NCBI GenBank assembly: GCA_031260975.1
Contig: JAISKJ010000003.1
Coordinates: 629,109 to 661,108, forward strand
Direction of reading: 5' to 3'
DNA from: Christensenellaceae bacterium
GTDB taxonomy: Bacteria; Bacillota; Clostridia; Christensenellales; UBA1242
Length of the DNA stretch: 32,000 nucleotides
This document shows positions 16,912 through 26,606 of the stretch, piece after piece; position 1 is the stretch's first letter, and each line of letters opens with the position of its first letter. The notes beneath the pieces were generated by a model. It had not been told where the DNA came from. It made no database searches and saw nothing but the letters and a program-made list of their open reading frames with translations. A program made the translations under genes and the position numbers.

Positions 16912-16950
16912 CAAATTAAAAGAAAACTAAACCTTAGTTCAGTTTTCTTA
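16912..16950 (-). terminator. candidate terminator at the end of the AAA+/VWA operon
   Basis: On the minus strand, AAGAAAACTGAA, a loop and TTTAGTTTTCTT form an AT-rich stem with one bulge, followed by TTTAATTT. Confidence 0.4.
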
Positions 16951-17000
16951 ATCAAACTCATATTTGTTTGTGCAACTATTTTAAATTTCGACAAGTGAAA

Positions 17001-18587
17001 TTACATTTCCCTTCCCATATCTTGTTGCGGAACGGTTTCAAACTTCATTTTTTCAAGCTCTTCATTGCTTAGCTCAATAACCTTGCCGCCAATGGGCGAA
17101 AAATTAGCCTGACCGCCAAACACCAGCCACATAACACCGTCTGCTTTGGTTTTTTGTTTATGGCTTGACCTGCCGTCCAGCTGCCCGTCAGTAAACACTA
17201 TCTTATTTGTGCGGCACTTTGGGTTTGGAGTAAATGCCGTGGCTGCTGCTTCAAAGTTGGTGCCGTCATCATCCCTTGTTGCACGAAATTCCTCAACCTG
17301 CTTTTTTGAGGTTAATTCCTGAAATCCGTGAAAATTTCCGCCGAAACACCCCACTTTTATGTCAGTTTCCTTAAACATAGGCACAAGCTGCAACAAAAAG
17401 CCGCGCAGCAATGTGTCACTGATGCTGCCGCTGGTGTCAAGCACTACCTCAGTTGTTGCTCTTCCTTCAACTTCAACATCGTCTACACGCACATTCGGAT
17501 TATACTTTGACGAACGCCTGTAGACCCATCGCTCTTCCTGCTCTTCAACAGCCTTTACCAAAAGCCGCTTCCATGAAAGCACGGGCTTCACATATTTGGG
17601 GTCTTTTATTCCGGCGGTTTCAAAAATGCCGGCAAACGCTGCCTTTGTTCTGACTTTTGTTTCTTCATCGCGCTGAATTTCATTTCGCTCAAACTCGCGG
17701 GCTTCGTCAACAGGCCTAGTTATTTCCTTCTTTTCCTGACGCTGCTCAGATTTACTCTCGTCCAGATTTTTTTCATTGGGCTTTCTGTTTTTCATTATTC
17801 TGTTAAGCAGGTCTTTTATGCCCTCGGCTTTCCCGCTGTCCTTCTGCTCTTTTTCAGGCTCATTCCAAATATCATGGTCGTCAAAGCCCTCATAATTTTC
17901 AAGGTCTATATCATCAAGTCCGCCGCCGATTTTTTCATCGTCTTGTTCAGACTTTTCCGGCTGACCTTCTTGCTTATCCTGATTTTGCGGTTGACTTTTG
18001 TCCTGCGGCTGATTTTGCTGTTGATTTTGAGTTTTTTGGTCCTGCCCTTGCTCGCCGGTTTGTGGACTGCCCTCTTTGTTTTGCTGACACTGTTTTTCTT
18101 CCTGCTGTTTTTGTTGCTTTTTTACAAGCTTGTCATAAATCGCTTCGGCGTTTCGATATAACCCGTCAGCAATATCCACATGTCCGCTCATAAGCGGCTT
18201 GCCATCGTCGCCCATCACAGGATTACCATTTCTGTCAAGCACAGGTTTGGGCTTGGGAGGTTCCAATCCGTCTCTTTTTAAAAAGGCGTTAATGCAGGCA
18301 TCGGTCGCTATATTCCAAAGCTTCTGATGCTCCTTATCATTGCCTCGCTGAACATGGTTAAAAGCGATATGACATATCTCATGAGCAAAAACGAAGTCCT
18401 TTTCGTCATCCGAAAGCTCAGCAAAAAAATCTGGATTATAAACTATCTCCTTGCCGTTTGTGCCTGCGGTTTTAATGTCCTTGCTTGCAATGACATTAAC
18501 ATCAAAAATTTTAGCACCAAACGAGGGATATTTCTCCAGCACCCTTTCTTTTATCTCTTCAATTTCATTTCTTTGTTTTGTCGGCAC
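17001..18587 (-). CDS. DUF2201-type protein: N-terminal HExxH metallopeptidase-like domain, Gln/Glu/Lys-rich linker, C-terminal VWA-like domain
   Basis: GTG start at 18587 with a GAGG RBS. HEICHIAFNH...LWNIATDACIN matches the metallopeptidase-like motif pattern. The linker reads QQKQQEEKQCQQNKEG...QNQQQNQPQDKSQPQNQDKQ. The C-terminal MIDAS-like VVLDTSGSIS...GTNFEAA...FTDGQ is VWA-like. Confidence 0.8.
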   Translation of the reverse strand: MPTKQRNEIEEIKERVLEKYPSFGAKIFDVNVIASKDIKTAGTNGKEIVYNPDFFAELSDDEKDFVFAHEICHIAFNHVQRGNDKEHQKLWNIATDACINAFLKRDGLEPPKPKPVLDRNGNPVMGDDGKPLMSGHVDIADGLYRNAEAIYDKLVKKQQKQQEEKQCQQNKEGSPQTGEQGQDQKTQNQQQNQPQDKSQPQNQDKQEGQPEKSEQDDEKIGGGLDDIDLENYEGFDDHDIWNEPEKEQKDSGKAEGIKDLLNRIMKNRKPNEKNLDESKSEQRQEKKEITRPVDEAREFERNEIQRDEETKVRTKAAFAGIFETAGIKDPKYVKPVLSWKRLLVKAVEEQEERWVYRRSSKYNPNVRVDDVEVEGRATTEVVLDTSGSISDTLLRGFLLQLVPMFKETDIKVGCFGGNFHGFQELTSKKQVEEFRATRDDDGTNFEAAATAFTPNPKCRTNKIVFTDGQLDGRSSHKQKTKADGVMWLVFGGQANFSPIGGKVIELSNEELEKMKFETVPQQDMGREM

Positions 18588-18598
18588 TTTTTACCTCA

Positions 18599-18997
18599 CT
18601 AAATTTTTATGTAAGTCAAAAATCTGCTCAGCTTTGGGTTTATTTTTCTGCCCGTGCTGCTGCTTGTCAAAATAATGCAACAGTTGTCGGGCAGTTTGGC
18701 GTTTGAAATTGTGCGATACTTTACAATTTCTAAAAATCTCTCCTGCTCCTCTTCGCTAAGCCTGTCAATATCCTCAAAAACCAGCAGATTAACTTGTTCA
18801 TTCTTTTTTTCTAAAACTGCATTGTACCAACTTGGAAAAACCGCCCCATTCCTTCCCATAAACACGGCAAACTCGGTTTTGGGGGCGTTAGCCTCAACTA
18901 CAACTGAATTTTTAAACTGCTTTGAATCAAAGCCCTCGAGCCACAAAGGCGTAAGGTTATCTTTTATATACTCTTTTACCGTTTTAAACTTATCCAT
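18599..18997 (-). CDS. small hypothetical protein resembling an AAA+ core that lacks a Walker A lysine
   Basis: 132 aa. The ATG overlaps the stop of the upstream ATPase gene (TAATG at 18995-18999). LLVFEDIDRLSEEEQERFLEIV...CCIILTSS resembles Walker B plus sensor-1 spacing. VFMGRNGAV occupies the P-loop position without GK(S/T). Confidence 0.6.
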   Translation of the reverse strand: MDKFKTVKEYIKDNLTPLWLEGFDSKQFKNSVVVEANAPKTEFAVFMGRNGAVFPSWYNAVLEKKNEQVNLLVFEDIDRLSEEEQERFLEIVKYRTISNAKLPDNCCIILTSSSTGRKINPKLSRFLTYIKI

Positions 18998-20910
18998 TAC
19001 TGTTCAACCCCCTTATTAAGGTCTAAGGTTTTATCAGTTTGAGTGCCCATCCTTCCGTATTCAATCGAATTATATACCGCATACATCTCTTCGCCGAGCT
19101 CATCCTTAATAAACTTCTTCACTATGTTCTTATCATCTTTGGAGGTGTTTAGAAGCGAACCTAAAACAAACATTTGGTCAGAAATGTTTTCCATGGGTAT
19201 ATGCTCATAATCCTTTTTCTTAATATCCTCAACGGTTATTTGCGGGCGCGAAACAAACTCACAAAGGCTGGAAGCAACATCCTTGCCCACCATGTCGGAT
19301 ATTCTGTCCTGACTGATTTTGCCGCGCTTTTCGGCCTTATACAAAACCTCCGAAACCTTTTCCCACTTTCGCGGGTCCAGCGTAGGCTTATGGTCACCTG
19401 CCTCGTCATCATATCCACTATAAAGCACTTCAGTGTTGCCCATCACAAATGCCGAAACCAGCGGATGAATTTTTGTCTGTCCGCTGCCGTCAGACTTCAT
19501 CTCATATCCCCACTCTATCCACGAATGTGTGTCCAGCGGAATTTCTATATGCGAATCAAACCTTCTAAACAGCGGTGCCGGCATGTTATAGGCCGCTGTA
19601 GACTCTTCCTTGCTGTTTCCGGCAGCAATCACCACGGCATTGTCGGGGAGCTCCCAAAGGTTTGGACGCACAGTGCGATTAAGCACAATATCATAAACCA
19701 TGCTCTGGGTTGTTTCTTTGACATTGGTCAGCTCATCAATAAACAAAGCCTGCTTTCTGTTAGGTTCTTTTTTACACTTTTCACAAAGCAGCGTATACCA
19801 ATAAGGCGGATAAATCATTCCGGGGTCGCCGTTTGGCTCCTTGCCTCCCACTACCTCCTCGGGCATCATGCCGTTTCTGAGCACAATGCTGGTATAGGTG
19901 GGGTCAAGCTCATAAACCCTTCGTGATTTTCCCACGCCCGACAGACCATGCAGCATCATGCTGCACCCGTCCTCAAAGTTTTCCAGCATCCTCTCTTTTA
20001 TGCTTGCCGAGCGCGTGATTTCAAAAGCCCCCTTTCGTTTGGAGTCCCGAGTCGCTCCGTTTTGAGGTGCAGCAGTGTTTTGAACAGCGCTTTTTTGAGG
20101 GGTTATATCCTTTGCAAAATGGTTGTTTAAATATGCTCCTCCGTCAGACTTATCCAAGTTTCCGTCATAGGTGCCGCTGTTGTTCATCTGAATACCCGCA
20201 TACATAGCGTTTTCGGCCACAGCCCATTCCTTGTTGGTTTTTTTGTCTTTCAGAATTAAAAAAGTTACCGGTTCCACTTTTACCCAGTATTCTTTGCCTT
20301 CTTCAAATTTTGCTCCGCCGGCCAGCTTATTTTGGTCGCCGCTGTCATATGTCAAAGCCTTGACTTTCACATACTTCTGACCGTCCAGAATATATTCCTC
20401 CAGCTCTCTCGGGCTGAATTTTTGTTTATAATATTTTTCTTCGTATTTTGTCGGTACTGAATCTACCGTATACTTCTTACCCGTCTTATTTTTGCCGCCC
20501 CCCAACACACTGTTGAGCCTTTTTTCAAGGTCAGAGCCGGGCTCAACCGCTGTCTGCGGATATTCAAGGTTTGATTTATAAGTAGGAACCCCTTCTGCGT
20601 TTTTCCCCCTCACTCCGTTCGGGGAGATTGTCAGGATGTCAGAGAACAGCGAAGCTGGACGTGCCGCGGGTCTCCTACTGTATGAGTAATACCAATTTCT
20701 AGTTGCGTCGGTGTAGACGGTAATGACATAATCATTATTATGCTTAGAGGCAGACCACCAAACGGAACGACCGTTTGCGGAACTTATATATACACCCAAA
20801 AGTTTGGCAAAGTCAGAGGCTCTGCAAGCTGCCCATTTGCTGGCCGGAGGGTCAAAATCCTCCCAGATTTGAGCCTCAGTGGGAAAGGTCCATTTAACAG
20901 TTGCAGCCAT
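18997..20910 (-). CDS. DGR target protein: N-terminal variable DUF1566/C-type-lectin-like module fused to a MoxR/AAA_5-like AAA+ ATPase
   Basis: GGAGGAG RBS and ATG at 20910. Residues 7-88 (WTFPTEAQIWEDF...GRSVWWSASKHNNDYVITVYTDATRNWYYSYSRRPAARPA) fit the W.(L/F)PT...(Y/W)WS(S/A)...(V/A)R(C/P)(V/A) pattern. Walker A LHGLSGVGKS, Walker B ALFIDELTN, sensor-1 VVIAAGNS and PLFRRFD are present. No signal peptide or TM helix. Confidence 0.85.
   Translation of the reverse strand: MAATVKWTFPTEAQIWEDFDPPASKWAACRASDFAKLLGVYISSANGRSVWWSASKHNNDYVITVYTDATRNWYYSYSRRPAARPASLFSDILTISPNGVRGKNAEGVPTYKSNLEYPQTAVEPGSDLEKRLNSVLGGGKNKTGKKYTVDSVPTKYEEKYYKQKFSPRELEEYILDGQKYVKVKALTYDSGDQNKLAGGAKFEEGKEYWVKVEPVTFLILKDKKTNKEWAVAENAMYAGIQMNNSGTYDGNLDKSDGGAYLNNHFAKDITPQKSAVQNTAAPQNGATRDSKRKGAFEITRSASIKERMLENFEDGCSMMLHGLSGVGKSRRVYELDPTYTSIVLRNGMMPEEVVGGKEPNGDPGMIYPPYWYTLLCEKCKKEPNRKQALFIDELTNVKETTQSMVYDIVLNRTVRPNLWELPDNAVVIAAGNSKEESTAAYNMPAPLFRRFDSHIEIPLDTHSWIEWGYEMKSDGSGQTKIHPLVSAFVMGNTEVLYSGYDDEAGDHKPTLDPRKWEKVSEVLYKAEKRGKISQDRISDMVGKDVASSLCEFVSRPQITVEDIKKKDYEHIPMENISDQMFVLGSLLNTSKDDKNIVKKFIKDELGEEMYAVYNSIEYGRMGTQTDKTLDLNKGVEQ
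20649..20770 (-). repeat. DGR variable repeat (VR), codons 47-88 of the target gene
   Basis: 122 nt aligned without gaps to 22291-22412, 110 of 122 identical. There are 12 mismatches, 11 of them where the TR has A on the minus (sense) strand. Confidence 0.9.
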
Positions 20911-20970
20911 AACAGTCTCCTCCGTTTCAGTTTTTCTTTTTTAGAAAAACCCATTTTTTTTTATATTTTT

Positions 20971-20999
20971 ATTTTATCACATTTTTTTGTTATTGTAAA
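20971..20999 (-). promoter_or_regulatory. candidate internal promoter for the target/AAA+ operon
   Basis: In the 99-nt gap between RT and target, on the minus strand: TTTACA (20994-20999), a 17-nt spacer, then TGTGATAAAAT (20971-20981). Confidence 0.4.
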
Positions 21000-21009
21000 T
21001 ACCAAAACA

Positions 21010-22041
21010 TTACTTTTTTGTTTTTTCTGTTTCTACAGCACGTTTCAGCCTCACGCTTTCGTTGCTGTGCTTGAGATGAGCGCTAAAGGCGTTTTTTCGC
21101 ACTTCAATATAATCATCATCCACAATGTTTTTGGCTCTCAGCTTTAAAAGTGTTTGCAAGTGACGCTTAAGCCTTACCCTTGCCGAACCGCGCAATTTTA
21201 TTATAACCTTGCCCGTTTGGGTCAGATAATGCCTGAACCCCAAAAAGTCTATGCCGTTTTGAACTCTGCCTATCTGCGTTTTGCGGTTTAAAAAAAGCTT
21301 TAGGCTTTGTTCACAAACCTCCTTTATCCGCTTCAAGCAATAATGCAGATATTTTTTGTCACGGTGAATAAGGATAAAGTCATCCATATATCGCACGTAC
21401 CCCTTAATATGAAGCTCCTCCTTAACAAGCCTGTCGATGGGGTCAAGATATAACAGTGCAAACCATTGGCTGGTTTGGTTCCCCAGAGGCAAACCTACTC
21501 CGGTGTAGTTTGGCTGCTCTTTAATCAGCTTTTGAATAAACCACATTTCGTCTGCGCCAAAGCCGCATTTCTTAAGCTTTTCTAAAAGTATATCATGATT
21601 GATGCTCTGAAAATATTTTGAAATGTCACACTTAAGATAATAAATCTTATTATCCCCTCCCCGAAAAAACTCCTGCTTCAAAAATTGTTTGAGCCGCTGC
21701 ATACCAAAATGCGTGCCCTTGTTTTTGCGGCAGGCAGCGTTGTCGTATATCAATCTTTTTTCAAGTCTTGAAAGCAGCGAATTTAAACAAAAACACATCA
21801 TAACTACCCTGTCTTTATAACTAGGCGCCTCAATCAGTCTTTCTTTGGGGTCATATATCTTAAACTCTTTATAGCCTCCAAAGCCAAACTTTTTGCTGAC
21901 TAATTCCTTTTCTAATGCGGCCAAAGTTATGCCGAGCGTGGTTTCAAAACGCACAACCTCTCCTTTGTGTTGCTTGGCTCTTCGGCACCGCTTGTGAGCC
22001 TCATACAAATTTTCAAAACAAAAAATTTCATTTAAGTTCAT
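21010..22041 (-). CDS. DGR reverse transcriptase
   Basis: RT motifs include LPLGNQTSQWFALLYL (the LGxxxSQ signature typical of DGR RTs) and YMDDFILI. I prefer the ATG at 22041 (MNLNEIF...), preceded by GAGGGA, over the GTG at 22053. The TR lies upstream. Confidence 0.9.
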   Translation of the reverse strand: MNLNEIFCFENLYEAHKRCRRAKQHKGEVVRFETTLGITLAALEKELVSKKFGFGGYKEFKIYDPKERLIEAPSYKDRVVMMCFCLNSLLSRLEKRLIYDNAACRKNKGTHFGMQRLKQFLKQEFFRGGDNKIYYLKCDISKYFQSINHDILLEKLKKCGFGADEMWFIQKLIKEQPNYTGVGLPLGNQTSQWFALLYLDPIDRLVKEELHIKGYVRYMDDFILIHRDKKYLHYCLKRIKEVCEQSLKLFLNRKTQIGRVQNGIDFLGFRHYLTQTGKVIIKLRGSARVRLKRHLQTLLKLRAKNIVDDDYIEVRKNAFSAHLKHSNESVRLKRAVETEKTKK

Positions 22042-22053
22042 TTTATCCCTCAC

Positions 22054-22290
22054 GCTTTGACTGCATTAAAAGAACGCCCCCTTAAACTTATAAAGCACAG
22101 GCCGGGCCCGGCATTATTTGTGTGGGCGCTCAATTTCTTCCACCGACACTCGGCGTTTTAGAGTTAATCCAAAAACCATTAGCGGTCAGAAAAGAGAAAA
22201 ATTCCTTCGCTTTAAGGCACGGATGTATTTTGCTTAAAATACACTTATCTGGCCTGTTTTCTAAATCCGCTCAAAACGGTTTCTTCAAAA
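22054..22290 (-). ncRNA. DGR spacer region between TR and RT (expected part of the TR-containing template RNA)
   Basis: Non-coding 237 nt directly 3' of the TR on the minus strand. In the characterised Bordetella phage DGR, the spacer downstream of the TR is part of the functional RNA and supplies the priming site. The function here is inferred from position only. Confidence 0.5.
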
Positions 22291-22412
22291 GCGAATCTGG
22301 ACGTGCCGCGGGTTTCCTATTGTTTGATTAATTCCAATTTCTATTTGCGTCGGTGTTGACGGTTCTGACATTATCATTATTATTCTTAGAGGCAGACCAC
22401 CAAACGGAACGA
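22291..22412 (-). repeat. DGR template repeat (TR)
   Basis: Non-coding copy of the VR. The sense strand is rich in AAY codons (AAT AAT AAT GAT AAT ... AAC ... AAT ... AAT TAA TCA AAC AAT AGG AAA) and contains an in-frame TAA. The 3' end is GC-rich and shared with the VR (CCCGCGGCACGTCCAG). Confidence 0.9.
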
Positions 22413-22455
22413 AACCCAACCATACAATCTTTCCCTTAATTAAAAGCCTTTCGGC

Positions 22456-23043
22456 CTAAAATCCATTTCTATTTTTCTTCCATCTCTGGTCGTCACTTCT
22501 CTTCCATGCCGCAATCAAGTTGATAGCCTCCCCTGTCTGGACAGAAATCTGTTTATACTGCTTTGGCAAAATGCAGCCTGCGCTCTCAGCCACCATGGCA
22601 ACATACCCAAGCATTTTAAGCCTGATGATTGCTTCTTTTTGCAAGTTCTCACGCTCTTTCTTGTTCTCCCCACTGTCCATCCTCAAAAAGTTTGCCCGCA
22701 ACAAGTCTTGTAAGGCTTCAAGCACAAAATTCTGCATCCGGTTCACAAACACTCCGCGGAATTTTGCAGGAGACCTTTGAGTAACCAAAATTATATAAGC
22801 TCCAAGCTTTTTAATGACAGTTATCACAATAAGGTCACTGCTCTCAGCAGGGATTTTACAAACGCTTTCCCATTCACGGTCGCGCCAAGAGGCATCTTTT
22901 TGCGCCTGAGTTTTGTCAAATCTTTGGCCCCTGGCCATAGCCGCAGCATGACCTATTGACACTTCATCTTGAATGCTGTTGATTTTGCCCTCAGCGTCAT
23001 CAACAGTTTTCGGTATCCTTAAACTCTTATCGCGGTCATGCAT
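22456..23043 (-). CDS. avd: Avd-like accessory variability determinant (four-helix-bundle protein) with an N-terminal extension
   Basis: I prefer the ATG at 23043, preceded by GAGAGGGA; the GTG at 23064 falls at or upstream of the predicted transcription start. The C-terminal 130 aa (YIILVTQRSPAKFRGVFVNRMQNFVLEALQDLLRANFL...RLKMLGYVAMVAESAGCILPKQYKQISVQTGEAINLIAAWKRS) fits the Avd helical pattern. The gene lies immediately 5' of the TR. Confidence 0.75.
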   Translation of the reverse strand: MHDRDKSLRIPKTVDDAEGKINSIQDEVSIGHAAAMARGQRFDKTQAQKDASWRDREWESVCKIPAESSDLIVITVIKKLGAYIILVTQRSPAKFRGVFVNRMQNFVLEALQDLLRANFLRMDSGENKKERENLQKEAIIRLKMLGYVAMVAESAGCILPKQYKQISVQTGEAINLIAAWKRSDDQRWKKNRNGF

Positions 23044-23069
23044 TAAATCCCTCTCTTTTGTCACGGCCT

Positions 23070-23098
23070 ATTCTATCACACCTCATTCATTCTTTCAA
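23070..23098 (-). promoter_or_regulatory. candidate DGR promoter
   Basis: On the minus strand: TTGAAA (23093-23098), a 17-nt spacer, then TGTGATAGAAT (23070-23080). It lies about 27 nt upstream of the avd ATG. Confidence 0.5.
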
Positions 23099-24984: not shown

Positions 24985-25013
24985 TTGACAAAAGTATTTC
25001 CATGGTGTATCAT
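24985..25013 (+). promoter_or_regulatory. candidate promoter of the pyrF-pyrE fusion gene
   Basis: TTGACA (24985-24990), a 17-nt spacer, TATCAT (25008-25013). Confidence 0.45.
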
Positions 25014-25085
25014 GTTTATAATCAAATTACAACTACAACCATATTTACAATTTATTTTTTAGGGATTATAAAAGGAAAGAGAAAA

Positions 25086-26606
25086 ATGGGAAACAAAAAA
25101 GTTGAAAATGGCTTTGAAAAATTACAAAGACAAATTGAAAAAAAGAACTCGCGTGTGGTGCTTGGAATAGATCCAACGGATGAAGAGTGGGATAAAGCAT
25201 ACAACTCTCCGTTTACAATAGATTATTTCAAAAAACTTATAAACGAAGCTGCACCTTATGTGGTCGGCATCAAACCCAATCTTGCTTTCTTTGAACGCAG
25301 TGAATATAGACGCGGCATTATGGCGCAAATTATGAAATATGCAGGTGAAAAAGGATTGGTTAAAATAATGGACGCAAAGCGCGGCGACATTACGGATACA
25401 CAAACACAAATGTCAGAAGCGGATATGATAAACTTTAATCCGGATATTGTCACATTACATTCATATTCCGGAAGTGACGCAGTAAAACCGTATTTAGATG
25501 TTAATCCAAATCTTTGCATATATATCATGGCTGCAATGTCAAATCCAAGCGCACAAATACAAAATCTTACAGCAAACGGCCTGAAAGTAGCTCAGCATGT
25601 TGCCGTTGACGCAGGCAGGTGGGGTCAGGGCCGTGTTGGTTTGGTTGTAGGAGCCACACAAGGTGAAGCACTAAAGCATATCCGTATGGCAGAAAAAGAA
25701 TATGGGCTGAATCCTGCACCTGTGCTGGCGCCGGGCCTCGGCAAACAAGGCGGAACACCCTTTGCAGACAGAAATTCAGTCTTCCCTATTTCATCAGGAC
25801 TGACAAAAGAAAAATATCTTAATGGTATGACCACAGGTGAAGCTGCAAAATATTGGCGTGACGTAATAAACACAGAAATTAAAAAGGCACAAGAACCGCA
25901 AAGCCTGAGAGAATATGCAGTAAATAGTCTAATCGAAGGCGGCTTTGTTAAAACAGCAAAATCTCCCGACCTTATTAAAGACGGTTTCTTTTTAAAGAAA
26001 GGCAAAACAAAACTTACCACCGCAGGAATTGTTCTGACAGGCAGCCCAGACGAAAAAGTTGAACAGCTTCGCTCTCTTGTTGGTAACGGCACTCTTTCTC
26101 AAGACGATTTTGCCGCTTTGTTTGTAAATCTGCGTGACATTATGGGTATGACAAATATAGAAGCTCGGGACACCATCGGTCACCTTTACACCAAATTAGT
26201 TAAGGACAGCGGTGTTAAACCGGAGCTCGTAGGCGGCGTTCCTTATGGTGCAATATTTCCCGCTATGCAAGTTGCACAAAATCTTAAGGTTCCTTTTATA
26301 ACTGAGCGAAAGGAAGCTGACATGGTGCATGACAGAATTGTAGGCGGAAAACATGACGGAAAACAAGGCATAATTGTTGAAGATGTCCTTACATCCGGCG
26401 GCTCATCCATCGAATTTGCAAAAAGTCTGCGTGCAAACGGAATTGAAGTAAACGATGTATATGCTTTCTTAGACAGGCAGCAAGGCGCAGAAGAAAATCT
26501 TGAAAAAGCAGACCTTACACTACATGCAGTTACAGATATGGACTCTCTAAAAAAGACGATGAAGAAAAATCCAAATGTTGCAAGCAGTGTAATTGATTTA
26601 ATATAA
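25086..26606 (+). CDS. pyrF-pyrE: bifunctional orotidine-5'-phosphate decarboxylase (type 2) / orotate phosphoribosyltransferase fusion
   Basis: I prefer the ATG at 25086 (AAAGGAAAGAG RBS). The N-terminal half has VVLGIDP...GIKPNLAFFE...MDAKRGDITDT (type-2 OMP decarboxylase motifs). The C-terminal half has GVPYGAI...GIIVEDVLTSGGS (PRPP-binding loop of OPRTase). Confidence 0.85.
   Translation: MGNKKVENGFEKLQRQIEKKNSRVVLGIDPTDEEWDKAYNSPFTIDYFKKLINEAAPYVVGIKPNLAFFERSEYRRGIMAQIMKYAGEKGLVKIMDAKRGDITDTQTQMSEADMINFNPDIVTLHSYSGSDAVKPYLDVNPNLCIYIMAAMSNPSAQIQNLTANGLKVAQHVAVDAGRWGQGRVGLVVGATQGEALKHIRMAEKEYGLNPAPVLAPGLGKQGGTPFADRNSVFPISSGLTKEKYLNGMTTGEAAKYWRDVINTEIKKAQEPQSLREYAVNSLIEGGFVKTAKSPDLIKDGFFLKKGKTKLTTAGIVLTGSPDEKVEQLRSLVGNGTLSQDDFAALFVNLRDIMGMTNIEARDTIGHLYTKLVKDSGVKPELVGGVPYGAIFPAMQVAQNLKVPFITERKEADMVHDRIVGGKHDGKQGIIVEDVLTSGGSSIEFAKSLRANGIEVNDVYAFLDRQQGAEENLEKADLTLHAVTDMDSLKKTMKKNPNVASSVIDLI

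What the first reader, a model, noticed from the sequence alone, without database searches (positions are those of the whole stretch)
16912..23098. Candidate new system: a DGR wired to a MoxR-like AAA+ ATPase, a degenerate AAA-like subunit and a VWA/HExxH metallopeptidase
**What the sequence shows.** One co-directional block contains promoter, avd, TR, spacer, RT, a 99-nt gap with its own promoter-like element, the VR-bearing AAA+ ATPase, a 132-aa ORF (TAATG overlap) and a VWA-peptidase gene (11-nt gap, GTG start with RBS), ending in a terminator-like hairpin. Housekeeping rpiA and a tRNA cluster flank the block.

**Established knowledge.** DGRs diversify ligand-binding C-type-lectin/DUF1566-like folds by adenine-specific mutagenic retrohoming. 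MoxR-type AAA+ ATPases commonly work with a VWA partner encoded next to them. DUF2201-type proteins combine a putative metallopeptidase domain with a VWA domain.

**Inference.** The hypervariable N-terminal module may act as a programmable intracellular binder. Engagement could be transduced by the AAA+ ring to the VWA/peptidase partner, giving an adaptive sensor-effector with possible anti-phage or regulatory function. Described DGR targets are mostly secreted or surface receptors, phage tail fibres or STAND/kinase-type signalling proteins with a C-terminal VR. I am not aware of this DGR-MoxR-VWA-peptidase arrangement having been described.
Basis: partly seen in the sequence, partly recalled or inferred. 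Interest (0 to 1): 0.92.

Follow-up and report, generated by a model that had tools for sequence, protein, structure and literature searches.

The report
DGR-diversified AAA+ ATPase with peptidase partner
A gut Christensenellaceae bacterium carries a compact five-gene cassette in which a mutagenic retroelement rewrites the tip of a cytoplasmic motor ATPase that is paired with a protease, and the same cassette recurs in other gut bacteria, so it looks like a new variant of the "hypervariable sensor" systems already proposed as bacterial immune receptors.

Summary
On the minus strand lie avd, a 123-126-nt TR, an RT with LGNQTSQ/YMDD motifs, a 637-aa ATPase whose residues 47-88 are the VR, a 132-aa ORF and a zincin-VWA protein. 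TR and VR differ at 13 positions, 11 of them TR adenines (Fisher p=7e-5). The cassette sits between rpiA and a tRNA cluster.

It is not a one-off. The ATPase / small ORF / peptidase trio recurs in gut MAGs of Alphaproteobacteria and Clostridia. Of 73 genes with enough upstream sequence, 17 have the same Avd-TR-RT directly upstream, each with an adenine-biased VR at the 5' end of the ATPase gene. Members of 90%-identity clusters differ almost only in the VR.

The ATPase model matches NorQ/CbbQ (MoxR clade). The 132-aa ORF is a P-loop-less copy of the AAA+ core. The peptidase has HExxH and an intact MIDAS motif. No component has a signal peptide or TM segment.

The novelty claim is overstated. 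DGR-MoxR-vWA-peptidase conflict systems (Kaur 2020; Doré 2024) and a MoxR + metallopeptidase-vWA dyad (Iyer 2021) are published. New here: the variable module is fused to the N-terminus of the ATPase itself, in unicellular gut anaerobes. The C-type-lectin fold was not confirmed, and function is inferred. Verdict: a new variant of a known kind.

The parts
23070..23098 (-). sigma-70-like promoter candidate upstream of avd (TTGAAA-17-TAGAAT, TG extended)
   Evidence: The pattern match is not enriched over shuffles.
22456..23064 (-). avd (Avd accessory protein). The ORF is 202 aa from the GTG. An ATG at 23043 preceded by GAGAGGGA is an alternative start. The Avd core is aa ~65-199.
   Evidence: phrog_3206 'Avd protein of DGR' 1.3e-14. 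Pfam bAvd and NCBIfam DivGenRetAVD hit weakly and below cutoff. It is 39-63% identical to the ORF upstream of the RT in 17 related loci.
22287..22412 (-). Template repeat (TR): 126 nt, 41 adenines, 10 AAY codons in the VR frame, and an in-frame TAA, so it is not coding.
22054..22286 (-). TR-RT spacer (non-coding; contains the GC hairpin CGGGCCCGGCCTG)
   Evidence: Folding gives z = -1.5, not significant.
21010..22053 (-). DGR reverse transcriptase (347 aa from the GTG; the likely start is the ATG at 22041 behind GAGGG). LGNQTSQ at aa 190-196, YMDD at aa 222-225.
   Evidence: phrog_1423 5e-95; RVT_1 3e-17; motifs. It is 52-57% identical to the RTs of 17 syntenic loci. It is 34-42% identical to RTs of DGR-bearing gut phages (nd12, Faecalibacterium phages), and Bordetella phages are among the matches.
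20971..20999 (-). sigma-70-like promoter candidate in the 99-nt RT-target gap
   Evidence: pattern match only.
18997..20910 (-). DGR target: a 637-aa cytoplasmic protein made of an N-terminal variable binding module plus a MoxR-clade AAA+ ATPase.
20645..20770 (-). Variable repeat (VR), encoding aa 47-88 (WWSASKHNNDYVITVYTDATRNWYYSYSRRPAARPAS). The GC-rich stretch CCCGCGGCACGTCCAG near its 3' end is identical in TR and VR and is IMH-like.
   Evidence: In the model the VR forms strands E51-56, E61-65 and E71-75.
20086..20910 (-). N-terminal ~275-aa module that behaves as one rigid body. The VR-bearing 'W-W-x-S ... R-P-A' part (aa 1-95) comes first, followed by a beta-rich part (aa ~100-270: EYPQT, TGKKYT, KYVKV, YWVKVEPV, YLNNHF motifs).
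   Evidence: AF2 pLDDT 90.4, pTM 0.87. The module occurs as a unit in 716 representative proteins with other C-terminal partners. Pfam DUF6273 is above cutoff in family members but not in this protein.
19000..20025 (-). AAA+ ATPase module with C-terminal helical domains (aa 296-637). Walker A GLSGVGKS is aa 322-329 (19924-19947). Walker B ALFIDE is aa 388-393 (19732-19749). FRR is at aa 448-450.
   Evidence: Motifs. AF2 pLDDT 87.7. Foldseek top hits are NorQ 9qh6 at 1.3e-8 and CbbQ 6l1q at 1.9e-8, then McrB and dynein. phrog_1297 ATPase 1e-32. Pfam AAA_5 scores 16.2 bits, below the cutoff of 22.
18599..18997 (-). 132-aa P-loop-less AAA+ core paralogue; its start overlaps the target stop (TAATG).
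   Evidence: BLASTP against target aa 361-457: 27% identity, E=6e-6. It is present after the ATPase gene in 55 of 83 loci. 0 of 48 homologues have GK[ST].
17001..18587 (-). 528-aa zincin metallopeptidase-VWA protein. The DUF2201_N peptidase is aa ~1-165, with HEICH at aa 69-73 (18369-18383). An E/Q/K/D-rich linker spans aa ~160-335. The VWA domain is aa ~375-510, with MIDAS DTSGS at aa 384-388 (17424-17438) and TDG at aa 466.
   Evidence: DUF2201_N 1.4e-27; SprT-like and M48 weak; DUF2201 VWA 23.5 bits, below the cutoff of 26.4. phrog_1314 2.7e-51. Motifs and linker composition. Present in 58 of 83 loci. Homologous over both domains to phage CB7 gp110, which lies next to a phage MoxR.
16920..16949 (-). 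Terminator-like AT-rich hairpin (13 pairs) followed by a T-run, closing the block

Best explanation
SHOWN. A chromosomal, cytoplasmic five-gene cassette is present. It consists of a complete DGR (Avd, TR, RT) and a three-gene module: ATPase, P-loop-less AAA fragment, and zincin-VWA protein. The DGR copies the TR through an adenine-error-prone cDNA into the 5' end of the next gene. This rewrites up to ~21 codons (aa 47-88) of a beta-meander in the N-terminal module of a MoxR-clade AAA+ ATPase. The three-gene module is the conserved core. The DGR is attached to it in about a quarter of genes overall, and in 40% of those with the same N-terminal module.

INFERRED. By analogy with the NorQ-NorD and CbbQ-CbbO MoxR/VWA pairs, the ATPase forms a hexamer that grips the VWA domain of the peptidase protein and remodels its long acidic linker. 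The dead AAA fragment may act as a seventh or regulatory subunit. The six hypervariable modules on the ring act as a diversifiable ligand-binding crown. Binding of a cognate, probably foreign, protein either gates the ATPase so that the tethered HExxH peptidase is unmasked, or presents the bound protein to the peptidase. The most likely biological role is a conflict or immunity sensor-effector. This parallels the DGR-diversified MoxR/vWA 'VMAP ternary' systems, but here the sensor is fused to the motor.

CONFIDENCE. Anatomy and DGR targeting ~0.9. MoxR/VWA mechanical coupling ~0.6. Immune role ~0.4.
For: DGR:
- Adenine-specific TR/VR mismatches in the window, in 15 syntenic loci, and in 'orphan' targets compared against the TRs of relatives.
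- RT and Avd assignments.

Ongoing diversification in the family:
- Entropy of 1.5-1.9 bits at the VR versus 0.04-0.4 in the ATPase.
- 90%-identity cluster members differ almost only in the VR.

Conserved system:
- 17 of 73 ATPase genes have an RT directly upstream.
- 15 of 15 RT-positive loci with downstream sequence carry the peptidase-VWA gene.
- No other conserved neighbour exists.
- RT and Avd are 52-57% and 39-63% identical across Alphaproteobacteria and Clostridia.

MoxR clade and VWA coupling:
- Foldseek matches to NorQ-NorD and CbbQ, with intact Walker A/B and MIDAS motifs.
- NorQ remodels a NorD linker through a VWA finger in its pore (PMC13036017).
- A phage dyad of MoxR + metallopeptidase-vWA is homologous to this pair (PMC7824862).

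Other points:
- Cytoplasmic location: no hydrophobic segment in the target, small protein or peptidase.
- Cellular rather than phage: 2 weak hits in IMG/VR, and no phage record covers more than 51% of the target.
- Conflict analogy: PMC7159879 and PMC10907252.
Against: - No experiment and no read-level data exist for this locus. The only other contig carrying it is identical, and a metagenome pattern scan found nothing.
- The C-type-lectin fold expected for a VR host was not recovered. Foldseek against PDB and BFVD gave no hit better than E=0.027 despite pLDDT 90. The window protein gets no DUF6273, DUF1566 or FGE hit.
- Pfam AAA_5 and the DUF2201 VWA domain are below their curated cutoffs.
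- Neighbourhoods are mixed. Some sit beside integrase, IstB, RM or PIF1-WYL genes. Others, including this window, sit among housekeeping genes. There is no PADLOC match beyond generic RT/AAA hits.
- Phage relatives of the dyad were proposed to be assembly chaperones, not immunity proteins.
- No hairpin was found downstream of the VR.
Confidence: 0.5

Rival explanations
1. Non-immune chaperone or processing machine. The MoxR + metallopeptidase-VWA pair is a domesticated phage-type assembly and processing dyad. The DGR-variable module only tunes which cellular client, such as a variable surface or secreted protein precursor or a regulator, is remodelled or cleaved. Under this reading it is programmable regulatory proteolysis rather than defence.
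For: - Relatives of both proteins are adjacent in large phages and are annotated MoxR.
- Iyer et al. 2021 propose a virion-assembly and processing role for that dyad.
- Characterised MoxR/VWA pairs (NorQD, CbbQO, RavA-ViaA) are maturation factors.
- Several loci, including this one, lie among housekeeping genes.
Against: - A housekeeping client would not need 10^10-plus binding variants.
- The distribution is patchy and multi-copy across two phyla with 52-57% identical RTs, which suggests horizontal spread.
- No conserved client gene lies in the neighbourhood.
- Some copies sit next to integrases, RM genes and other mobile or defence-type genes.
Confidence: 0.2
2. Weapon or counter-defence of a mobile element. 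The cassette belongs to an integrative island or satellite and serves that element, for example by degrading host defence proteins or the proteins of competing elements. The DGR would keep pace with variable targets.
For: - The trio sits directly beside a tyrosine integrase and IstB in L085-L087.
- The window cassette abuts a tRNA cluster, a classic integration site.
- The nearest phage RT relatives are gut-phage DGRs, with nd12 at 40% identity.
Against: - The window has no integrase, repeats or other mobile-element genes, and its GC content matches the flanks.
- The family is almost absent from 2.9 million viral contigs.
- No neighbour beyond the five genes is conserved.
Confidence: 0.12
3. 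Relic. The DGR in this particular genome is no longer active and the VR is frozen, so the ATPase works with a fixed N-terminal module.
For: - Only 11 of 41 TR adenines differ, and there are two non-adenine mismatches.
- No polymorphism data exist for this locus.
- Many family loci lack a DGR in cis.
Against: - All ORFs are intact, with catalytic YMDD and LGNQTSQ.
- TR and VR remain 90% identical, with an identical GC-rich 3' stretch.
- Close relatives show abundant VR variation between samples.
Confidence: 0.1

Closest known systems
DGR-associated VMAP ternary conflict systems (MoxR ATPase + vWA protein + VMAP peptidase/effector): Kaur, Burroughs, Iyer & Aravind 2020 (PMC7159879); Doré et al. 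2024 (PMC10907252)
   Same: A DGR is wired to a cytoplasmic MoxR-type AAA+ ATPase, a vWA protein and a peptidase. The hypervariable module is proposed as an invader sensor whose signal is passed through the ATPase to a proteolytic effector.
   Different: - In those systems the variable FGS/C-lectin domain sits at the C-terminus of the vWA protein (or of a separate target), not at the N-terminus of the ATPase.
- Their peptidase is a trypsin or caspase domain on a third VMAP protein, not a zincin fused to the vWA protein.
- No VMAP gene is present here; the third gene is a dead AAA fragment.
- Their hosts are multicellular cyanobacteria and gammaproteobacteria; here the hosts are gut Clostridia and Alphaproteobacteria.
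MoxR AAA+ / metallopeptidase-vWA chaperone-cochaperone dyad of large phages (Iyer et al. 2021, PMC7824862; PHROGs 1297 and 1314)
   Same: The two-gene core is the same: a MoxR-clade ATPase next to a protein with an N-terminal HExxH peptidase and a C-terminal VWA domain. Both proteins are detectably homologous.
   Different: - The phage ATPases lack the N-terminal variable module; matches cover only aa ~290-610 at ~25% identity.
- They have no DGR and no small AAA fragment.
- They sit in a phage context and have a proposed virion-assembly role.
Tentaclins and other DUF6273 DGR targets of gut phages (Baykov et al. 2023, PMC10743442; Faecalibacterium phages, PMC11792537)
   Same: [quoted passage not shown]
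- The nearest phage RTs to this one include phage nd12 at 40% identity.
- The family's N-terminal profile aligns weakly with the nd12 tentaclin VR region (hhalign E=5.8e-4).
- DUF6273 is above cutoff in some family members.
   Different: - Tentaclins are virion proteins with Ig/Fn3 domains behind the DUF6273 domain. Here the module is fused to an ATPase in a cellular operon.
- The window protein itself has no DUF6273 hit.
- The VR is at aa 47-88 rather than ~220-260.
NorQ-NorD and CbbQ-CbbO MoxR/VWA remodelling pairs
   Same: They are the best structural matches of the ATPase module. They also have an adjacent VWA partner with a MIDAS motif and a long linker that the ATPase remodels.
   Different: They are dedicated metal-insertion or Rubisco-activation factors. 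They have no variable domain and no peptidase.
DGR targets with P-loop NTPase domains (STAND/NACHT/AAA_16 in cyanobacteria; Midasin-like 'UVR4' targets in CPR; Wu et al. 2018, PMC5758913)
   Same: DGR diversification of a cytoplasmic NTPase-containing protein.
   Different: In those proteins the NTPase lies upstream and the VR is C-terminal. Only 3 of 372 surveyed DGRs had an N-terminal VR.

Membership tests
Diversity-generating retroelement (DGR) | Reverse transcriptase of the DGR type ([LIV]GxxxSQ motif, YxDD) | tested here: met
   LGNQTSQ at aa 190 and YMDD at aa 222. phrog_1423 5e-95. The best phage matches are RTs of DGR-bearing phages, including nd12, FP_Toutatis and Lelie, with Bordetella phages also in the list. 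No phylogeny was built.
Diversity-generating retroelement (DGR) | TR/VR pair whose differences fall at TR adenines | tested here: met
   11 of 13 mismatches are at A, giving 11/41 versus 2/85 and p=7e-5. The same pattern holds in 15 syntenic loci.
Diversity-generating retroelement (DGR) | Avd-type accessory protein next to TR/RT | tested here: met
   phrog_3206 1.3e-14. Pfam bAvd (20.6 bits, cutoff 40) and NCBIfam (20.9 bits, cutoff 80) are below their curated cutoffs. The ORF is conserved upstream of the RT in 17 loci.
Diversity-generating retroelement (DGR) | VR displayed on a C-type-lectin (or Ig-like) fold | tested here: inconclusive
   A confident model (pLDDT 90.4) gave no significant Foldseek hit in PDB or BFVD, and there is no PDB sequence hit. 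The links are indirect: DUF6273, reported as C-lectin-like in PMC10743442, is above cutoff in family members (P0066 27.2 bits, P0107 28.6 bits), and hhalign to the nd12 tentaclin gave E=5.8e-4.
Diversity-generating retroelement (DGR) | Evidence of actual diversification (VR polymorphism) | tested here: inconclusive
   This feature is met for the family: 90%-identity clusters vary almost only in the VR and there is an entropy peak there. It could not be tested for this locus, because the only other contig is identical and the metagenome scan returned nothing.
MoxR-class AAA+ ATPase | AAA+ fold of the MoxR/AAA_5 clade with catalytic motifs | tested here: met
   Foldseek gives NorQ at 1.3e-8 and CbbQ at 1.9e-8, then McrB and dynein. 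Walker A GLSGVGKS, Walker B ALFIDE and FRR are present. Sequence profiles are weak: AAA_5 scores 16.2 bits against a cutoff of 22, and the PDB profile hits 2r44 and 5c3c have E~0.01-0.04.
MoxR-class AAA+ ATPase | Adjacent VWA-domain partner gene | tested here: met
   A VWA protein lies two genes downstream with MIDAS DTSGS and TDG. It is present in 52 of 80 loci with enough downstream sequence.
VMAP ternary conflict system | Third component is a VMAP protein, and the variable FGS domain is fused to the vWA protein | tested here: not met
   The only other conserved gene is a P-loop-less AAA fragment. The variable module is on the ATPase and the peptidase is on the vWA protein. No VMAP profile was available, so absence is judged from gene content.
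Phage MoxR + metallopeptidase-vWA dyad (PHROG 1297/1314) | MoxR gene next to an HExxH-vWA fusion gene | tested here: met
   phrog_1297 1e-32 and phrog_1314 2.7e-51. There is pairwise homology to phage CB7 gp108 and gp110.
Phage MoxR + metallopeptidase-vWA dyad (PHROG 1297/1314) | Encoded in a phage genome | tested here: not met
   The flanks are housekeeping genes. There are 2 weak hits in IMG/VR. No phage record covers more than 51% of the target.
DUF2201 family (Pfam PF13203 + PF09967) | N-terminal putative metallopeptidase plus C-terminal VWA-like domain | tested here: met
   DUF2201_N scores 97.5 bits against a cutoff of 23.2. DUF2201 scores 23.5 bits, just under its cutoff of 26.4. Most homologues carry both domains.
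Tentaclin (phage DGR target) | N-terminal DUF6273 with a VR, followed by Ig/Fn3 domains, in a phage | tested here: not met
   There are no Ig/Fn3 domains, an AAA+ module follows instead, and the context is cellular. Only a weak profile similarity exists.

The most novel reading that the evidence does not exclude
The cassette is a self-contained, DGR-programmable intracellular 'antigen receptor-protease'. A hexameric MoxR motor carries six hypervariable binding heads. On capturing a foreign (phage or plasmid) protein, the motor mechanically unmasks or feeds a tethered zincin peptidase. This would give unicellular gut bacteria an anticipatory, somatically diversifying immune module. It would be distinct in architecture from VMAP/STAND systems and would spread horizontally between phyla.
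Probability: 0.3. Interest if true: 0.85.

Novelty: new variant of a known kind. Interest (0 to 1): 0.62.

Why it matters
What cellular DGRs are for is still largely open. The best current idea is that they diversify intracellular antigen sensors of NTPase-based conflict systems. That idea rests on large, multi-domain loci in hard-to-handle multicellular bacteria.

This cassette is small: about 6.2 kb, five genes and one VR. It is conserved with its DGR across two phyla of gut bacteria. It places the variable module directly on the motor protein, next to a simple peptidase effector. If it works as inferred, it is a compact and transplantable test bed for DGR-driven sensing. It would also extend the concept to unicellular members of the human and animal gut microbiota.

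The cassette also adds a clear, recurrent case of a VR at the extreme N-terminus of a target. That arrangement was seen in only 3 of 372 DGRs in the 2018 survey.

Tried and rejected
- Fold search of the N-terminal 300 aa against PDB and BFVD gave nothing significant, so I do not claim a C-lectin fold.
- Pfam, NCBIfam and PADLOC searches on the window proteins gave no DUF1566, FGE-sulfatase or DUF6273 hit and no defence-system assignment. PADLOC returned only generic RT hits and a weak DolB AAA hit.
- Circular-permutation test: I placed aa 100-285 in front of aa 1-99. The DUF6273 score of P0043 rose from 20.8 to 26.8 bits and extended to profile positions 28-171. P0066 rose only from 27.2 to 29.2 bits, and the window protein did not score either way. 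I keep this as an idea only.
- Phage or prophage origin of the block is rejected. The flanks are housekeeping genes, there are no structural or integrase genes, and the family is nearly absent from viral contigs.
- Chance repeat is rejected.
- No second VR was found in the window.
- There is no hairpin downstream of the VR and no significant structure in the TR-RT spacer.
- Rfam finds only the three tRNAs.
- VR polymorphism of this exact locus could not be tested. The pattern scan of JGI metagenomes gave 0 hits, and the only other contig (Logan SRR14710919) is identical.
- A search for conserved extra partner genes around 83 loci found none.
- Literature searches for DGR + DUF2201, and for DGR + ATPase targets in the Roux 2021 and Wu 2018 papers, found no description of this architecture. 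The library does not hold all journals.

Full report
**1. Checking the observation**

In order they are:

- avd at 22456-23064.
- A non-coding stretch holding the TR at 22287-22412.
- The RT at 21010-22053.
- A 99-nt gap.
- A 637-aa ORF at 18997-20910.
- A 132-aa ORF at 18599-18997, whose ATG overlaps the preceding stop as TAATG.
- An 11-nt gap containing GAGG.
- A GTG-initiated 528-aa ORF at 17001-18587.
- An AT-rich hairpin with a T-run at 16949-16920.

Sigma-70-like hexamers lie at 23098-23070 and 20999-20971. Such matches are no more frequent here than in shuffled sequence, so they are only compatible with promoters.

The flanks are ordinary chromosome. On one side lie ClpX, ClpP, trigger factor, RluD-like, LspA, SepF and RpiA. 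On the other lie tRNA-Arg(TCT), tRNA-Leu(CAA), tRNA-His(GTG) and a pyrF/pyrE-like gene. GC content does not change across the block.

An identical protein in the public collection is named 'MAG: ATP-binding protein [Christensenellaceae bacterium]' and lies on an 828-kb contig.

**2. The DGR is real**

- TR and VR are 126 nt long and differ at 13 positions. Eleven of these are adenines in the TR (11 of 41 A versus 2 of 85 non-A; Fisher p=7e-5).
- Read in the VR frame, the TR has 10 AAY codons and an in-frame TAA, as expected for a non-coding template.
- The window holds no second VR.
- The RT has the DGR-type LGNQTSQ motif and YMDD, and hits the phage DGR-RT family phrog_1423 at 5e-95.
- Its best matches among sequenced phages are RTs of DGR-bearing gut phages. 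Phage nd12 is 40% identical, Faecalibacterium phages Brigit, Lelie and Toutatis about 34-35%. Bordetella phages are also among the matches.
- Avd is recognised by phrog_3206 (1e-14) but only weakly by the Pfam and NCBIfam models. It carries a ~65-aa N-terminal extension that is conserved in related loci.

**3. The target and its partners**

The VR encodes aa 47-88 of the 637-aa protein, at the extreme N-terminus.

*The N-terminal module*
- An AlphaFold model of aa 1-300, built on 83 homologues, is confident (pLDDT 90.4, pTM 0.87). It treats aa 1-~275 as one body, with the VR forming three short strands.
- Foldseek found nothing significant for this model in PDB or BFVD. Two 'DUF6273 domain-containing' phage proteins appear only at E~0.2.
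- The window protein has no DUF1566, FGE-sulfatase or DUF6273 hit. Some family members do reach the DUF6273 cutoff over the aligned N-terminal region (P0066 27.2 bits, P0107 28.6 bits).
- The family profile aligns weakly (hhalign E=5.8e-4, probability 29%) with the VR region of the nd12 'tentaclin'. DUF6273 is reported as C-type-lectin-like in PMC10743442.
- I therefore regard the fold as unconfirmed but probably DUF6273-related.
- The ~275-aa module occurs as a unit in 716 representative proteins (272 at E<=1e-10). Many are 270-450 aa long or carry other C-terminal domains, so it is a mobile binding module.

*The ATPase module*
- The model of aa 296-637 (pLDDT 87.7) matches NorQ in complex with the NorD VWA domain (1.3e-8). 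It also matches CbbQ (1.9e-8), then McrB and dynein. This is the MoxR/AAA_5 clade.
- Walker A (GLSGVGKS), Walker B (ALFIDE) and FRR are intact.

*The 132-aa protein*
- It aligns with aa 361-457 of the ATPase: 27% identity, E=6e-6.
- None of 48 homologues has a P-loop, and Walker B is mostly degenerate. It is a dead AAA+ core fragment.

*The 528-aa protein*
- It has DUF2201_N (97.5 bits) with HEICH.
- A 175-aa E/Q/K/D-rich linker follows.
- It ends in a VWA domain with MIDAS DTSGS...TDG.

None of the three proteins has a hydrophobic segment or signal-like N-terminus.

**4. It is a conserved system, not a one-off**

- The ATPase has at least 243 homologues.
- A scan of one genome per species returned 78 loci. 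All are from gut or rumen MAGs of Alphaproteobacteria and Clostridia (Christensenella, Eubacteriales, Lachnospiraceae), often with several copies per genome.
- Only two weak hits came from 2.9 million viral contigs. No sequenced phage covers more than the ATPase half.
- A tblastn and ORF-clustering census of 83 loci gave the peptidase-VWA gene in 58, the small AAA fragment in 55, Avd and RT in 18, and no other conserved neighbour.
- Of 73 ATPase genes with at least 3.2 kb of upstream sequence, 17 have the RT directly upstream. All 17 lie among the 43 genes with a detectable N-terminal beta module.
- All 15 RT-positive loci with downstream sequence carry the peptidase-VWA gene.
- In 15 of these loci I recovered a TR between avd and RT, and a VR 150-280 nt into the ATPase gene. 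There were 11-25 adenine mismatches and 0-4 others.
- RTs are 52-57% identical to the window's RT in both phyla, more than the ATPase itself at 36-47%. This points to co-transfer of the whole cassette.
- 'Orphan' trios without a nearby RT still carry VR-like sequence. Their mismatches to the TRs of relatives are adenine-biased. For example, L008 versus the L007 TR shows 20 of 36 A positions against 4 of 83 others.

**5. Diversification is visible in the family**

Among 37 close homologues, column entropy peaks at the VR (1.5-1.9 bits) against 0.04-0.4 in the ATPase. Members of three 90%-identity clusters from different samples differ almost exclusively in the block between 'WSAS' and 'ARPALP'.

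For the window's own locus no such test was possible. The only other contig (Logan SRR14710919) is identical, and a pattern scan of JGI metagenomes found nothing.

**6. How it most likely works**

*Shown.* The DGR rewrites the N-terminal module of a MoxR-clade ATPase. That ATPase is genetically locked to a dead AAA fragment and a zincin-VWA protein.

*Established knowledge.* MoxR hexamers work through VWA partners. In NorQD a finger of the VWA domain enters the ATPase pore, and the motor remodels a NorD linker (PMC13036017).

*Inference.* The ATPase hexamer grips the VWA domain and pulls on the long acidic linker, which controls the N-terminal peptidase. The six variable heads bind a ligand that gates this step or is itself handed to the peptidase. 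The dead AAA fragment may cap or regulate the ring.

The need for massive binding diversity is one pointer to the role. The horizontal, patchy, multi-copy distribution is a second. Occasional placement beside integrase, IstB, RM and PIF1-WYL genes is a third. Together these favour a role in conflict with invading elements, as proposed for DGR-linked MoxR/vWA systems.

Other contexts are plain housekeeping, and the phage relatives of the dyad were proposed to be assembly factors. I therefore put the immune reading at about 0.4 and keep a non-immune remodelling or processing role as the main rival.

**7. Comparison with what is known**

- The general theme is published. Kaur et al. 2020 found that ~80% of cyanobacterial and gammaproteobacterial VMAP ternary systems (MoxR + vWA + VMAP peptidase) are DGR-associated, with the FGS domain usually fused to the vWA protein. 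Doré et al. 2024 proposed these targets as antigen sensors.
- Iyer et al. 2021 described a MoxR + metallopeptidase-vWA pair in jumbo phages. I confirmed homology of both window proteins to such a phage pair.
- N-terminal-domain VRs on DUF6273 are known from phage tentaclins.
- NTPase-containing DGR targets with C-terminal VRs are known from cyanobacteria and CPR. Only 3 of 372 DGRs had an N-terminal VR.
- I found no description of this combination: the variable module fused to the N-terminus of the MoxR ATPase, a zincin-vWA partner, a dead AAA third gene, and gut Clostridia or Alphaproteobacteria as hosts. The searchable library is incomplete.
- The cassette fails the VMAP-ternary, phage-dyad and tentaclin membership tests on defining features. 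It meets the tests for DGR, MoxR clade and DUF2201.

**8. Verdict**

The cassette is a new variant of a known kind. It is interesting mainly because it is compact, recurrent and experimentally approachable.

Noticed in passing
protein clusters of P0028, P0022, P0046: Many members of these 90%-identity clusters are gene calls that begin just after the VR (549, 585 or 594 aa instead of 651 or 688). This suggests that VRs often carry stops or frameshifts, or break metagenome assemblies, so that targets are mis-called as N-terminally truncated.
   Followed up: partly
P0002; P0080, P0090, P0107: There are architectural variants of the target. P0002 (1024 aa) has one variable module followed by two AAA+ modules in tandem. 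P0080, P0090 and P0107 (1031-1087 aa) carry a duplicated N-terminal module.
   Followed up: no
L034, L035, L051, L059-L061, L071, L076: Several Clostridia MAGs have two or three ATPase paralogues in tandem, or within a few kb, without an adjacent peptidase-VWA gene. Some genomes hold three or more separate loci.
   Followed up: no
L008, L088, L001-L004: Trios with no RT within 10 kb upstream still have VR-like sequence. Their differences from the TRs of related loci are adenine-biased. This implies a DGR acting in trans from elsewhere in the genome, or a recently lost one.
   Followed up: partly
L085-L087: A DGR-less trio (630, 130 and 498 aa) lies between an IstB-like gene and a tyrosine integrase. 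It is near an N6-methyltransferase, AAA_15/AAA_21 and ORC/CDC6-like genes, which is a mobile-island-like setting.
   Followed up: no
L090 4283-4795 (Pectobacterium phage CB7): In the phage version of the dyad, a putative HNH endonuclease gene sits between the MoxR gene and the peptidase-vWA gene. This may explain why PHROG 1314 (the peptidase-vWA family) carries the misleading label 'HNH endonuclease'.
   Followed up: no
window 20086-20910 and family members: The order of the two halves of the N-terminal module looks circularly permuted relative to Pfam DUF6273. Swapping the halves raised P0043's DUF6273 score from 20.8 to 26.8 bits and lengthened the match. The effect was small for P0066 and absent for the window protein.
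   Followed up: partly
window 25002-26606 (+): A single 534-aa ORF combines an OMP-decarboxylase domain with a phosphoribosyltransferase domain, a pyrF-pyrE-like fusion.
   Followed up: no
window 22456-23064 and 21010-22053: The mechanical ORF starts (GTG) of avd and RT are probably not the real ones. ATG codons at 23043 and 22041 have better-placed purine-rich Shine-Dalgarno-like sequences. They would give ~195-aa and 343-aa products. The Logan gene call for the RT is 343 aa.
   Followed up: partly
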